NCBI GenBank assembly: GCA_024137785.1
Contig: JAHRHZ010000036.1
Coordinates: 3,474,601 to 3,538,600 of the forward strand
Direction of reading: 5' to 3'
DNA: 64,000 nucleotides
Origin: Ginglymostoma cirratum
Taxonomy: Eukaryota
Under the pieces are notes generated by a model. The model made no database searches and had not been told where the DNA came from. It worked only from the letters and a program-made list of their open reading frames with translations. Both the position numbers and the translations under genes were made by a program. Below, in pieces: positions 57,101 to 63,100 of the stretch (position 1 is its first letter; each line of letters begins with the position of its first letter).

Positions 57101-60100
57101 ATTTATAAACGTAAGAACTGAATGCCATGGGCAATATCACAACAATTTACTGGTTCTGCAATTAACTTACAAATGTAGGCAACATATCACGGTAGGTGGA
57201 GGGGAACTGGTGAGTCCCAGCCTGCAGTGGTATTCCCAGTCCCCTCCTCAGCGGAGTAGCAGGGCGCAGTGAAGGCTCCTTTGAGTCACTTGACGACACT
57301 GGCGTGTGCACCGGATCTTCTTGGTCTGCGTTTTTAGCTTCCACCTCCGGCGGTGGCAGAGGCGGTGGAGTCGGTGCCGTCGTGGGGTTCAGGTTTCGCC
57401 CACCGCCCTCCCTCCAAATGGCTACATCTGCAAGCAAAATACAACTGCTCGATTCTAGACTGGTACTCAGGTGTGTTTAGATCAAGTGTTGAATCTCCAA
57501 ACAAGGTGCCACCAGATATATTCCAGTAATTACAGTTTTAAGATCCAAATACAAACCTAACGAACCAGCTAATTGAAACCAGGCCTTATCTAACAAACAT
57601 GTTTATCATTGAGTGCCTGTGGCAGAGAGGTAGTGTCCCTACCTCTGGGCTAGAAGGCCTGGGCTTAAGTCCACCTGTTCCAGGGATGTCATGACAACTC
57701 TGAACACGTTGATTAGAAAATATCTGAACCATAAACCTCCAAAACTTGCAGGTCCATATAAACTACTTTGCTGTTAACTTCATAGCAACTCATCCTCATT
57801 GAGGACTGTTGTGGTTAAGTGGCAGTGTCCCCACCTCTGGGCCAGAAGACTTGTATAAGGTCCCACTTCAGAGGGGTGTACTAACATTTCTGAACAGGTT
57901 AATTAAAAAATACCTACAAATTTCATCATGGGGTCTCTGGTGGCACAGTGGCAGCACCCTTATTTCTGATTCAAGAGGCCCAGGTTCAAGTTCCAGCTGC
58001 TCCCAAAGTGTGCAATAACATCTCGCAACAGGCAGATTAGAAAACTATCTACAGTAGATTAGATGAATCTACCCAGCCAGCCTACATGGATGCTTTAAAA
58101 CAGCTACTGATTAGTTGCAACCTGCCATCTTCTGAAGGGCTTTTGTGGCACATTAGTAGTGTCCCTGCCTCTGAGCCAGAAAGCCCAGGATCAAGTCCCA
58201 CCTGTTCCAGAAATGCGCAGTAAAGCCTCTGAACATGTTGACTAAAAATATCTACAAGTTACATCACCTCTTAACTGGCATTCCACAAAGGAGGCAGTTC
58301 TGGTAGGATACTTTACTGCATTTGTGAGAAATATTGATCTCAATGTGATCAGATTTCCTTCACAAAACAAGTTAAGATGTCTAATTAGAAGCACACTACC
58401 TCTCAATTCCACAACCAGTTCTGATTCAAGGACTAAATCACATGCCATGAGGAAACACATCTCATTCATAGAGACGTCTTTTGCACACCTGCACCAAAAA
58501 GAATCAGTTTCCTACTCTCACAAGGTTAGCAGATAAGAAGTTTTTGGCAAGAGTTACTTTTCATGCAGAGTTATTTAAATTAGTTTCCAATTCTTGAGGT
58601 TGAATTTATTTGTTCTGCAAAGAACAAGATCTGTATAACAATAAACACTATCACTTCAAGGAGAAAACAATTGGGCTACTTGTTTGGACATATGCAAAAC
58701 TGTTTTAATCCAAAGAAGGGTTTAGTGTCAGATTCATAGCTTTTTTTGAGCTGGGTGATTATCAGGTTTCAGATTCTTTTACACACACTGCCGACTGTTT
58801 TAGAGCTTTGAAAATATTAGTTTCAAAAAATGGTATCCTGTCCCAATTGGCAAGTTTCTGAAGTTCAGGGCTCACTATGAGGATTTTAGTAAACAAAACC
58901 GCTGTGTCATCACGTAAAAACTTGTATTTTAGAAAGTATTTCTCTTTTATCCTTTGGCATCAGATGTGAAATTCTCTCTGCTATCGCTCAGCAGTTGTAC
59001 AAACTTTCCAGACAGACCATAAATACTCCAAAAAACGTCTACGCCAGCAGAATGCCAGATCCTGCACATAACTGTGAGCCTTACTCTGCGGGCGGAGGCT
59101 TGGTCCTGGCCCATACGACTGATCTGTGGTGTCCTTTTCTTTTCCAGCCTTTTCCTGGTCTCCAGCTGCTTTTAATGTTGGAAATTCCTCTTGAGAGAAT
59201 GGTAACTGCTTGTTTAATCCTCTTCCGCCTGAGACAAATAATAACAAAAAAGTCACTAACAATCAAACACAAGAAGACTTCACAGAGCCAGTATATGCTT
59301 TTACTGCCATCAATGGGAAGGATGGGAGAATAAGGAGCCCAGAGGACAAGAATCTGAATATTAGAATGAAGGAAGCAGCAGAGATGGGTAGGATTAAACC
59401 TAAGGCTTTTAGAGAATAACATTTATAACCTAAACTCCCTGGGGAGCAAGAGAAAGTTAAATCAGTGAAGATGGGGTGATGGACAAAAGACTTGGGAAGC
59501 AATATCAGGCACCAAAACATGTCAGATGACTTAATTATTTTGAAAATCTACACCAGATGCCAACCAGCTCATTTTTGGATTTGACAGAAGCAAGTCAGGG
59601 TAAACAACAAACAGCCTGCCAGGCAGCAGAACGGCAATAGAAGCCTAATATTGAACATGCTCTATAGGTTTAACAGTGGGTAGAAAGGTCTTCCTGGTGT
59701 AGAGGAAAAGGTAAGTTAGTTTACAGCACAGTTTTTGGGTCAAGAGGAAGAAGCATGCTTCTCCTTGGGCCTCATAACCTTACTGCGAATGTGACTATGA
59801 ATTGTCCGCTATAAATCCATTGCAAGGGTTTGCATAGCGAAATGAGTGGACTTGGAAACGTCTGTGTGTTCAAAATACCGAGCCTTGCATGTAGAGTAAA
59901 ATTAATAGAGTGTATGATCACCAAAGCACACAATTCATTAATACTACAACACACACTATTTTCAGCACATTCGTAAAATTGAACATAGAGTGGCTAGGTA
60001 ACCAAAATATGCTGGAGAACAATTAACTCACCTCCTGGTCCTACTGGCTTTGCCTTCAATTGTGCCCATGACTTTGCTCCACCTTGTGCAGAATTTGTGT

Positions 60101-63100
60101 TCTGTCAATTTTCAGAGGAAGAAAGTCCATTACATTCCAGGCAACAAACTGCTCCAAACATCCATCTACTTCCATTCTTGACGCTGAATCACTAACACGT
60201 ACCACCATTGATGTGATTCTACATGTTAATCCAATGAAATTGTACTGTAATGCTGAACGTAACATTTCTTTCATTGCTGTTATTTGTTGTGTTTGGAAGC
60301 AACTTGCTCACATAATATCCCTTACATCAATTTTTCATCCAACAGATTTAAACAGACACTTTAACTCATATTAGTCTACAACTCTGCGCTGAAATGAGAC
60401 AGGAAAGACCAATTTTGATCAGCCAAATGTTGCCATTTCACAATGATCCCTCTTGCCCTTGCTGATGAAAGACTTGACAAATGCTTGTATGTTACCTCGT
60501 GGACTGGTGGCGGCTTTGGCGCACTGCAGGCAGACGTCTGCGAAGCCGGCTGTGATGGCAACTCCGGCTGCTGTACTACTGACACAGCGATACTGCAAAA
60601 CATAATGTCACATGGTCAGCAAAACCACCAAACCAGGCTCTTGCTGCAAGTTTTGAAAGTCAACACAACAAAAGCAAACAGTACCCTTCTCCCAAAATCT
60701 GAGTTGTACAGAACATAGGAAAAGGTCAGGTTTGAAAGTTGGCAAATCAAAGACTTAACCAAACCACTGACAAGATGGGACTTGCAGAAAAAAAATTAGT
60801 TGTAGCTCAATTTAAAAGAACTGTCAATAGTTTACTTTATACTCATCTTGTTTTAAGACACTGACAGATTTGACTATGGCAGTCCCCACATGGTCAGCCT
60901 CCCACCTTCCACCATCCACAAACTTCAGCTCATGTAAAACTCTGCTGCCTATATCCCAATTCACACCCAGTCTCATCCAACAATCACATGCATATTCACT
61001 TTCCAGATATTATTTACAATCCTACATCCAAGACACAAGAGCCTATCAGGAGCTCATGGTCTAAATCCCATTCAACATACAGGTTCATTGAGCATAAGTC
61101 CCAATAACCTGATCTCTAACATACAGCCACAGTAATGTGGTTGCTGATATGAGTACCGTGGCTACAATTAAAGGTCTAGGAACAAGTACTGTCAAATGGT
61201 GTACAGCAGATGGCCTCGGCAGCTACTGGAGAGGGAAATGAAAAAAATATGCTGCAGCGGCAAAGGAACTCCCAGAGGATCTTAGGGAACTATTCTGAAG
61301 GAGAAATCAGTATTTCAGCAGGTAAGGAGACTGAAATAAAATTGGTCAGGACTAGGTCTGCCCCATCCAATATATAAGGGGCTATGCTGCTGTTAACCCA
61401 GAGGTACACCACCCTTTCCTGCCCTGCTGGTGGCAGGGTGGGTGTGCACGCGTGTGTTGGGATGCTGGGATTACTTAGTCCTGCCTTCCCTAGGTCATTT
61501 AATATTAGCATCATAGAAGTAATCTAAGGTACCATTACCATTTGAGTTCCTTACTAAAGTAGGAAGAAAAATGCTACTCACTACAATGGCAGAGACTGTT
61601 ATGGGATACTGATAGTCTCTGTCAAACAGATCGATTTCCACATGTCAAGTTAGGCAGTAAAAAACTTCCAGAGATTTGCAAGGATTTTGCTGTAAATCTA
61701 TAGTTCAGCAGATGCAACAGTTTCCGCCCTTTCCTATTGGACCCATTGCCTGTACAAAAACCAACTCCCCGCTGGAGAAGAATTTAGTTCTTAAACAGAG
61801 AGCAAAGAGCATCGACTGGCTCTCAATCAACACTGTAGCCGCTTTATAACAACCCTTAAAAGGGACCTGCATTTCTAACACTGTTATGCTGTCCCATCTC
61901 TACCAGTGGGCAGTTTAAACAGGAATCCAGCCCAGGGTCACTTCACATTAGCTGAGCACCCACCATGACCAATATTTAGAAAAAGGATTTCTAACACTGC
62001 CAAGGAGATTAAGTACAAAACAGACTTCCGATAGAGTTTATTTAAACAAAAAGCTCAAAACCAAATCAGCAACAAGACAATCTTACTTCTTTTGGTCCTG
62101 CTGCTCCTGTTTGCTTGCCCATCCTGTTCCGTCTTTTGGTACAATGGTCACATTCGGGTCGTTTCCTTTGTTTTCAGCCTTTAGGCTGGGAAGGTTGGCA
62201 GGTGGGGGCATGCGCCGGGCAGCAGCCACTTTGCCAAGACTCTGCAAGCCATGTCGAGGGACAACTGCAACACAGATTTTTAAAAAGTTCAGGAGTCACC
62301 AGGGAACAACAGGACAGCTGTGCAACTACCTGCACTTAATACCAGGAGGATGCCAAAAAAAGTTCCTAGCTACACAATGAAGAATGATCCAGGCAGCGAC
62401 TGCAAAAATGTAGCATTAGCACAAAGCATATCTCCTTCATAGTGACACTGTAGTTGCAAGTACAGTTGTATACCACACCCCACAGAACTCTTATAATATT
62501 ACAAGATCTTAGCTTAACTTATTGTAACTCCAACCACAGATGTAAAAATAATGACCCGCAAGAACAGACATAAAATTAGCAAAGCTTTATGTTTAAATGC
62601 TAAATGCAAGATTCAACTGTGGTGCAGAAACTTCAGTTAAAAAATAGTTTGAATATTTCAGCAGCCCTGGAATTCCTGGGCTACAGTGCAGTATTTGGAA
62701 TTTGAATGTGCTGTAAGATCATCAAAAACGTACAGTATAGCCAAGGGAAACACAAAGAAACTCGAGAACTCAATGGGGTGAGTGGAGTGTGTGAGGGTGA
62801 GAGAGAGAGAAAAACAGTGATCAAGACTGAGTAGGGAGACAGAGCATGTGGTGGACAGAATATACATGCCAACACTGTAGCTGAAGACAGGTTAGGTCTC
62901 AGCAGCAATGCTTTGGATAGTGGACACAGGGTTAGTGAGTGCCACCACTGAACCTAGTGTAGCTTGTTGCCATCAGGAATCAAAAACGGGCAGAGATGCT
63001 TAACCCCAAATGGAAACACAAATCCCAGTAAACCCTGTACCTGGTTGAGTCTCCTTGTTACATACCTCCTGAATGTTTTTGGGTTTCTAGTGACTTTCCT

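What the first reader, a model, noticed from the sequence alone, without database searches (positions are those of the whole stretch)
57334..62122. Hidden 146-aa overlapping ORF in the -1 frame of PRRC2B exons 2-6: candidate dual-coding or autoregulatory system
Seen: the AUG in GGA-TGG (62122, strong context AGGATGG) opens a frame with no stop across four splice junctions until TAA 57334. It reads [146 protein letters not shown], with a hydrophobic Cys-containing segment and an NLS-like basic run. Main-frame exon 3 uses six rare NCG codons in 32, as expected when third positions are constrained by another frame. From memory (unverified), the same frame of human PRRC2B and PRRC2A reads roughly AAGVAAAAGFAEICLQF and AATAGFTDACLQP...SPREH, looking better conserved than the main frame there. 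Known: PRRC2 proteins promote leaky scanning. Inference: more PRRC2 could divert ribosomes to this ORF, giving a small protein and/or NMD (the stop is far upstream of the last junction), i.e. negative feedback. Caveat: four AUGs lie between the main start and this AUG.
Basis: partly seen in the sequence, partly recalled or inferred. Interest (0 to 1): 0.88.

Follow-up and report, generated by a model that had tools for sequence, protein, structure and literature searches.

The report
Ancient second protein hidden inside PRRC2
The start of the PRRC2B gene, a regulator of how ribosomes choose start codons, carries a second 146-codon reading frame that is also open in its sister gene PRRC2A, in human, mouse, bird-like and fish-like copies and in several likely invertebrate relatives; it is likely translated into a small basic protein and would let PRRC2 sense and damp its own activity.

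Summary
Confirmed, and wider than reported. The window gene is PRRC2B. The -1 frame is open for 146 codons, from AUG 62122 to TAA 57334. In the same genome PRRC2A keeps the AUG and a 178-codon frame; PRRC2C is closed (11 stops, 9.7-9.9 expected). The frame has 0 stops at 82 at-risk sites in four vertebrate A/B loci. Across nine vertebrate protein pairs, main-frame codon-position-1 changes are depleted (16 vs 68.5 expected) and position-2 changes, the hidden frame's wobble, are not (56 vs 49). The signal begins at the AUG. Likely invertebrate homologues also keep the AUG and an open frame (one at least 244 codons), plus an AUG 16-19 nt before the main start and a 23-codon internal ORF. The product is already in UniRef as an uncharacterized human (A0A8I5KXM2) and mouse protein; ten paper searches found no description, and the scan had not noted it before. 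Translation of the long ORF is not shown: the human catalogues seen list only the short ORFs. Best reading: a leaky-scanning/reinitiation cascade that yields a conserved small protein and likely negative feedback.

The parts
63107..63199 (-). Upstream overlapping ORF (30 codons, weak-context AUG 16 nt before the main AUG, same frame as the long hidden ORF)
   Evidence: Same AUG in PRRC2A and PRRC2C of this genome and in L023 and L024. AUGs at -17/-19 in L025-L028, L030, L031. Human counterparts are catalogued Ribo-seq ORFs with HLA peptides.
63181..63183 (-). Main PRRC2B start codon (purine at -3, U at +4: moderate context)
   Evidence: orthology by bit score.
63087..63146 (-). 19-codon internal ORF (+1 frame, strong AUG)
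   Evidence: The human counterpart is in the Ribo-seq catalogue and TI-seq list. Absent in L024.
62181..62252 (-). 23-codon internal ORF (+1 frame, strong AUG made from His CAT + Gly); ends about 59 nt before the hidden-ORF AUG; candidate reinitiation donor
   Evidence: CAT kept in 30 of 31 loci with His here. Human counterparts are listed by Ribo-seq or TI-seq.
62087..62122 (-). Hidden ORF, part 1: AUG (62122-62120, AGGATGG) and first 12 codons, exon 2
   Evidence: The AUG and the -3 A both sit at main-frame synonymous positions and are kept in all 7 open loci and in the closed PRRC2C.
60496..60592 (-). Hidden ORF, part 2: exon 3, small-residue/hydrophobic Cys-containing segment, the best frame-specific signal
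   Evidence: (position-2-only 10 vs position-1-only 0 amino-acid changes against PRRC2A).
60032..60101 (-). Hidden ORF, part 3: exon 4, includes a second in-frame AUG at 60069
59085..59228 (-). Hidden ORF, part 4: exon 5, Arg/Lys/Trp-rich segment
   Evidence: 70% identity to PRRC2A; 4-fold sites 14 of 19 identical.
57334..57427 (-). Hidden ORF, part 5: start of exon 6 with TAA stop (57336-57334), about 160 nt before the next donor and with many exons downstream (predicted NMD-type stop)
   Evidence: Stop position varies among homologues (130-178 codons and more), so the tail is unconstrained.

Best explanation
PRRC2B carries a conserved second reading frame nested in its first coding exons, which is likely translated into a small basic protein and would serve as a feedback sensor of PRRC2 activity. 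Shown: (1) the frame is open from the same strong AUG in PRRC2A and PRRC2B and closed in PRRC2C of this genome; (2) it is under stop-avoidance selection in vertebrate A/B and several likely invertebrate homologues; (3) in jawed vertebrates the first ~120 codons show the substitution pattern expected from selection on the hidden amino-acid sequence; (4) an AUG overlapping the main start and a strong 23-codon internal ORF just upstream are conserved at synonymous positions. From papers: PRRC2 proteins promote scanning past uORF and main start codons, most at strong contexts, and the fly orthologue Nocte promotes reinitiation. Inferred: ribosomes that take the upstream ORF, or leak past the main AUG into the short internal ORFs, terminate and reinitiate at AUG 62122. 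More PRRC2 would send more ribosomes there and fewer into full-length PRRC2, giving a ~15 kDa, pI ~10, mostly disordered protein and a stop far upstream of the last junction that is predicted to trigger NMD. My odds: frame under selection 0.97; peptide-level selection in vertebrates 0.85; the route by leak plus reinitiation on the main mRNA 0.65; net negative feedback 0.5.
For: Stops at at-risk sites, first 130 codons after the AUG: 0 of 82 in four vertebrate A/B loci vs 12 of 54 upstream (P 7e-6); 0 of 39 in L026-L028 vs 6 of 25 (P 0.002); 2 of 123 in exons of 14 intron-rich loci; 56 of 129 in five closed controls. L028 is open for at least 244 codons where 15.9 stops are expected. PRRC2A vs PRRC2B of this genome: 4-fold third positions identical at 28 of 41 inside vs 17 of 58 in controls (P 2e-4); position-2-only to position-1-only changes 28:7 vs 12:19 (P 9e-4); pairs with PRRC2C give 16:17 and 18:16. 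Nine vertebrate pairs (18 of 120 proteins): position 1 16 vs 68.5 expected, position 2 56 vs 49.2 (P 5e-10); the bias starts at the AUG and ends near codon 120. Human PRRC2B and A0A8I5KXM2 are co-encodable at 143 of 143 positions. Hidden-frame identity to this gene is 81 of 126, vs null 40, 55 and 71 at 0, 25 and 50% synonymous retention. Upstream and internal AUG conservation. The human upstream ORFs are translated (PRRC2A 128 PSMs, PRRC2B 2 peptides). Passages in PMC10123092; Nocte as cited in PMC12700102; compensatory paralogue upregulation in single knockouts.
Against: No direct translation evidence for the long ORF. It is absent from the PRRC2A/B rows of the 7,264-ORF catalogue, and its AUG is not among the 3 PRRC2B TI-seq candidates. 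Six AUGs precede it, two in strong context, and its own AUG is strong, the class PRRC2 helps ribosomes skip. AlphaFold gave no fold (pLDDT 39.6) and there is no Pfam match. Length and stop position vary. L026 vs L027 show no position-2 bias (12:12), and 4-fold differences were not significant in the four other DNA pairs (P 0.08-0.41). Exon-by-exon tests against the calibrated null were significant only for exon 5 and for the whole ORF. The AUG and -3 A also persist in the closed PRRC2C. PRRC2-driven skipping of the upstream ORF would raise, not lower, PRRC2 output, so the sign of the loop is not fixed by sequence.
Confidence: 0.55

Rival explanations
1. The long frame is a cis-acting regulatory ORF only. 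What matters is that ribosomes translate far enough to be diverted, stall or trigger NMD; the released peptide has no function in trans.
For: Open frames with little peptide similarity in likely invertebrate loci, and no position-2 bias in L026 vs L027; variable length; no fold; not seen in the catalogues read.
Against: Stop avoidance alone does not predict the 4-fold depletion of position-1 changes, nor identity at 4-fold sites with no stop risk (22 of 31 inside vs 8 of 19 upstream, small numbers). The exon-3 motif is shared by A and B of this genome, human, mouse, L023 and L024 where the main frame differs. A nascent-peptide effect would still fit.
Confidence: 0.25
2. The small protein is made from an alternative transcript (downstream promoter or skipping of the first coding exon) that lacks the main AUG, or from a frame-shifting splice form, with no link to PRRC2 activity.
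For: 51 of 70 candidate human internal ORFs map to such transcripts (passage, PMC11526972). P0154 runs from the main frame into the hidden frame, on a single contig.
Against: From exon lengths, skipping exon 2 puts exon 3 in the +1 frame, and only skipping exons 2-3 enters the -1 frame, which omits the best-conserved segment. Selection begins at the AUG, and the frame is closed 12-17 codons upstream. The PRRC2B TI-seq rows are marked obstructed by the CDS in all transcripts. Conserved upstream AUGs point to control on the full mRNA. RNA reads were not examined.
Confidence: 0.15
3. The frame is a by-product of main-frame composition or of RNA-level constraint (splice enhancers, structure).
For: For this copy alone the upstream stop rate is also low (1 of 13). 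Main-frame conservation forces part of the hidden-frame identity.
Against: PRRC2C and four divergent homologues with the same motifs have the expected stops. T-ending codons are common at non-risk sites (17 of 71 here) but absent at risk sites (0 of 21). RNA-level constraint should not favour one codon position, yet position 2 is free and position 1 is held. Intron positions differ among the homologues that keep the frame.
Confidence: 0.03

Closest known systems
UniRef entries A0A8I5KXM2_HUMAN (142 aa), A0A9L0RPZ6_HORSE (142 aa), A0ABJ3HNS9_MOUSE (130 aa)
   Same: They are the orthologous or paralogous products of this frame: same start, 82 of 139, 81 of 139 and 72 of 128 identical residues.
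   Different: Human and mouse entries are named 'Uncharacterized protein'; the horse entry carries the host gene's name. No paper naming the accessions or peptides was found. How they were annotated could not be seen.
Dual-coding genes POLG/POLGARF and GNAS XL-alpha-s/ALEX (seen as search listings and abstract starts); ASXL1/ASXL2 TF frames (recalled)
   Same: A long conserved out-of-frame ORF over an annotated CDS, with synonymous constraint; ASXL is also a paralogue pair.
   Different: This ORF starts at an AUG 260 nt inside the CDS behind several AUGs, spans five exons and is kept in likely invertebrate homologues. POLGARF starts at an upstream CUG; ASXL-TF is reached by frameshifting (recalled).
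TP53BP1/SEP53BP1 (listing and abstract start) and ATF4 uORF control (passages in PMC10123092)
   Same: An internal or overlapping ORF reached by reinitiation after short ORFs.
   Different: Here the host protein is itself the scanning/reinitiation factor, and the target ORF is long and deeply conserved.
eIF1 and eIF5 negative-feedback loops on start-codon selection (passage; details recalled)
   Same: A start-selection factor whose own mRNA holds conserved AUG features that could report its activity.
   Different: Those use start context or uORFs at the 5' end. Here the cascade lies inside the CDS and ends in a long peptide-constrained ORF. Feedback is untested.
POLR2M/Gdown3 overlap (earlier scan note e1-8090208, unchecked)
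   Same: A hidden frame better conserved than the overlapping main frame.
   Different: Single first exon in mammals according to that note; unrelated gene.

Membership tests
PRRC2B (BAT2_N family) host gene | BAT2_N domain and closer match to PRRC2B than PRRC2A | tested here: met
   One search hits carry PF07001. N-terminus 324-332 bits to B vs 279-285 to A; large exon 242-310 vs 144-168. Two other paralogues in G000.
Dual-coding (overlapping ORF) genes | Long AUG-initiated out-of-frame ORF inside a CDS | tested here: met
   146 codons; junctions inferred, not read from RNA.
Dual-coding (overlapping ORF) genes | Stop depletion beyond chance across homologues | tested here: met
Dual-coding (overlapping ORF) genes | Synonymous-site constraint in the main frame | tested here: met
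   28 of 41 vs 17 of 58 for A vs B; 19 of 27 vs human; same direction but not significant in four other pairs.
Dual-coding (overlapping ORF) genes | Purifying selection on the hidden amino-acid sequence | tested here: met
   Position-1 depletion with free position 2 in vertebrate A/B; not seen in the one invertebrate-type pair; no formal dN/dS or PhyloCSF run.
Dual-coding (overlapping ORF) genes | Direct evidence that the hidden frame is translated | tested here: inconclusive
   Not in the catalogue rows read; database entries exist; one catalogue's supplement could not be read.
Dual-coding (overlapping ORF) genes | Function of the second protein | not testable with these tools
   No fold, family or Atlas match.
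Autoregulated start-selection factors (eIF1/eIF5 type) | Conserved out-of-frame AUGs in the factor's own mRNA | tested here: met
Autoregulated start-selection factors (eIF1/eIF5 type) | Use of those AUGs changes with the factor's level and lowers its synthesis | not testable with these tools
   Only indirect: paralogue upregulation in knockouts.
Splice-derived dual-coding regions | A frame-shifting splice event joins the main frame to the second frame | tested here: inconclusive
   Exon phases argue against it for exon 3 (inferred); no RNA reads were examined.

The most novel reading that the evidence does not exclude
PRRC2/Nocte mRNAs have carried, since early animals, a built-in assay for the two activities of their own product. 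An overlapping upstream ORF, a 23-codon internal ORF and a long -1 ORF together turn leaky scanning plus reinitiation into a second conserved protein and mRNA decay. This would be among the oldest dual-coding regions in animals, kept through vertebrate genome duplication in PRRC2A and PRRC2B and lost in PRRC2C.
Probability: 0.4. Interest if true: 0.93.

Novelty: new variant of a known kind. Interest (0 to 1): 0.83.

Why it matters
It points to an uncharacterized human and mouse protein, encoded twice (PRRC2A and PRRC2B), under selection across jawed vertebrates and not described in the papers searched. 'Synonymous' variants and N-terminal CRISPR edits in PRRC2A/B can hit a second protein, so existing knockouts may be double knockouts. 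It offers a directly testable mechanism for how cells set global leaky-scanning levels and for the reported compensation between PRRC2 paralogues. It may also explain part of the conservation of the BAT2_N domain, which one preprint describes as unstructured and of unknown function.

Tried and rejected
RNA support: the run search listed 9 runs, none on record as RNA ('no RNA holder listed'). No reads were laid, so junctions, isoforms and expression are untested. AlphaFold of the human product with 13 sequences: pLDDT 39.6, no fold, so no fold search was run. Atlas look-alikes for P0130 and L028 gave nothing usable, including no taxon for L028. Pfam: no family for P0130 or P0140. A tree of 17 N-terminal proteins left most forks open and does not fix the order of gain and loss. 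A transmembrane helix is not supported (best 19-residue hydropathy 0.8-1.5). A TI-seq peak assigned to a CCG in the hidden frame of human PRRC2B was not counted, since the codon was picked within a +-5 nt range. No complex prediction was run: no candidate partner. Paper searches found no description of this ORF. In-text searches for PRRC2 in PMC3483551, PMC13010147, PMC9825462 and PMC11701607 gave 0 hits; preprint 2026.05.28.727796 mentions only a splice-derived PRRC2C region. Not seen: the supplement of PMC13010147, bioRxiv supplements, file 13 of PMC11419116, the Nocte paper, most subscription journals, and Ensembl/GENCODE/OpenProt records; any of these may already describe the ORF. Earlier-findings searches by words and sequence found no PRRC2 note.
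Full report
OBSERVATION. The minus strand holds a PRRC2-family gene. Six exons with AG/GT ends give an open main frame from AUG 63183. Four AUGs lie between; a further AUG at 63199 opens a 30-codon ORF overlapping the main start. 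Exon 3 has 6 NCG codons in 32 vs 9 in 695 in the large exon. Many exons follow, down to about 13 kb. The gene scores higher to named PRRC2B than PRRC2A proteins; the G000 paralogue on C2 scores higher to PRRC2A, and the third, on C57, is taken as PRRC2C by elimination. Junctions were not confirmed with RNA reads, and the host species was not identified.

PARALOGUES IN THE SAME GENOME. PRRC2A has the same AUG and a 178-codon open frame. PRRC2C has the AUG but stops after 5 codons. Stops observed vs expected: B 0 vs 7.9, A 0 vs 10.0, C 11 vs 9.7 with large-exon codon use; with synonymous permutation, P 0.004, 1e-4 and 0.77. A vs B: 4-fold third positions are identical at 28 of 41 sites inside vs 10 of 27 upstream and 7 of 31 in aligned large-exon blocks (pooled P 2e-4). 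Amino-acid changes at codon position 2 only vs position 1 only are 28:7 inside vs 12:19 in controls (P 9e-4); pairs with C give 16:17 and 18:16. Main position 2 is the wobble of the -1 frame, so this pattern is specific to selection in that frame. Hidden-frame identity is 73 of 127 vs 56.8 +- 5.1 under a null calibrated on the upstream control (P 0.001); by exon only exon 5 is significant alone.

OTHER VERTEBRATES. A profile of the hidden exon-5 peptides found 31 proteins. Among them are whole products with the same start: human A0A8I5KXM2 (142 aa), horse A0A9L0RPZ6 (142 aa) and mouse A0ABJ3HNS9 (130 aa, PRRC2A-type). The human entry and human PRRC2B can be encoded by one DNA at 143 of 143 positions. 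Over 126 aligned codons this gene and human share 79 main-frame and 81 hidden-frame residues (exon 3: 9 vs 15). Nulls give 40, 55 and 71 at 0, 25 and 50% synonymous retention (P 0.03 at the last). In nine roughly independent pairs (18 of the 120 proteins; first 1,300 residues; only windows at least 50% identical), position-2 vs position-1 changes are 41:12 inside vs 228:313 outside for B, and 15:4 vs 117:156 for A. Composition-matched, position 1 is 16 vs 68.5 and position 2 is 56 vs 49.2; the bias spans codons 0-119 after the AUG. Two metagenome loci give real DNA: L023 (bird-like PRRC2B by protein match, 142 codons open) and L024 (teleost-like PRRC2A, open for all 119 codons held).

BEYOND VERTEBRATES. 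Their taxonomy was not determined; 'invertebrate' is inferred from divergence and different intron positions. L026, L027 and L028 have the AUG at G-W with A at -3 and are open to the end of the exon (91, 100 and 244 codons; P 0.005, 0.02, below 5e-5). In 14 intron-rich loci, exon segments delimited by eye have 2 stops at 123 at-risk sites (both in L043) vs 10 of 37 upstream, where only 6 loci gave an upstream segment; many are close kin. L052, L053, L056 and L058 are closed as expected, and L054, L055, L057 look the same. The other 11 were truncated, duplicates or lacked the exons. L026 vs L027 show no position bias (12:12), so peptide-level selection is shown only for vertebrate A/B. The tree does not resolve gain versus loss.

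A CONSERVED AUG CASCADE. An AUG 16 nt before the main start occurs in A, B, C (4 codons only in C), L023 and L024; one at -17 or -19 occurs in L025-L028, L030 and L031, the 6 of 16 loci in which the script found exon 1. The His codon making the 23-codon internal ORF is CAT in 30 of 31 loci (background 18 CAT to 15 CAC); the exception is a closed locus, and in closed PRRC2C the ORF runs on to 34 codons. In human, the upstream ORFs of all three paralogues and several short internal ORFs are catalogued as translated (supplement rows of PMC10032668, and PMC11526972). The PRRC2A upstream ORF has 128 peptide-spectrum matches and is noted 'Now annotated as protein-coding'; the PRRC2B one has 2 peptides (supplement rows of PMC11419116). 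The long ORF is in none of these rows.

MECHANISM. PMC10123092 (passages) reports that PRRC2 promotes leaky scanning at upstream and main starts, preferentially in strong context. Nocte is cited as promoting reinitiation after long uORFs (passages in PMC12700102; the paper itself not seen). Inferred: ribosomes leaving the 30-codon or 23-codon ORF reinitiate at the next strong AUG, 62122. Higher PRRC2 would raise this flux, producing a 14-20 kDa protein of pI 9.8-10.7 without a predicted fold, and a termination event about 160 nt before a junction. Paralogue upregulation in single knockouts (passages of preprint 2026.02.24.707808) fits cross-feedback but has other explanations. Against: six upstream AUGs, a strong target AUG that PRRC2 should also help skip, no footprint or peptide evidence, and an upstream ORF that on its own would give positive feedback.

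COMPARISON AND VERDICT. It works like known dual-coding genes and meets their sequence criteria; translation and function remain open. It resembles eIF1/eIF5-type feedback, but membership there is untested. The product exists in databases as uncharacterized. Ten searches found no paper on it, with the gaps listed under Tried and rejected. Papers were seen only as listings, abstract starts, passages or supplement rows; none was read whole. ASXL-TF and details of eIF1/eIF5 control are recalled. Verdict: a real and deeply conserved feature, a new variant of a known kind, interest 0.83.

Noticed in passing
G000:C57 334771 region (L008): PRRC2C of this genome keeps the upstream AUG but its ORF stops after 4 codons, just before the main start; the human PRRC2C counterpart is a 28-codon overlapping ORF.
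   Followed up: partly
window exon 5/intron 5 boundary, about 59.1 kb; L006: If intron 5 is retained, the hidden frame stops at once at the donor in both A and B. Several unnamed proteins (P0128, P0131, P0143, P0145) have exons 2-5 spliced and then run into what looks like intron 5; an intron-5-terminated isoform would end near the limit of the conserved part.
   Followed up: no
P0183, P0188: Two automated gene models use hidden-frame exons (exons 3-5; exon 3), so gene finders sometimes choose this frame.
   Followed up: no
P0154: An unnamed protein runs from the main frame into the hidden frame a few codons before the hidden AUG; single contig, possibly an indel or assembly error.
   Followed up: no
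L005 3972-4092: PRRC2A exon 3 has an 8-codon Ala-rich insertion relative to PRRC2B that keeps both frames open.
   Followed up: no
window 41264-43531; L015, L016: The large exon has +1-frame stop-free runs of 105-161 codons in all three paralogues; not tested against a null.
   Followed up: no
L043 4770-4960: One locus of the intron-rich group has two stops in the hidden frame where relatives L048, L049 and L051 have none: a possible independent loss.
   Followed up: partly
L048 6870-7314; L059 after 330: Tandem repeats of roughly 67 nt next to exon ends in two homologous loci.
   Followed up: no
window about 32.8-33.2 kb and 53.0-53.4 kb: Two assembly gaps (800 N in all) inside introns of the gene.
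   Followed up: no
human PRRC2B (paper PMC11632617): A cryptic poison exon responsive to NMD inhibition is reported in PRRC2B, a second possible NMD control; its position was not checked (passages).
   Followed up: no
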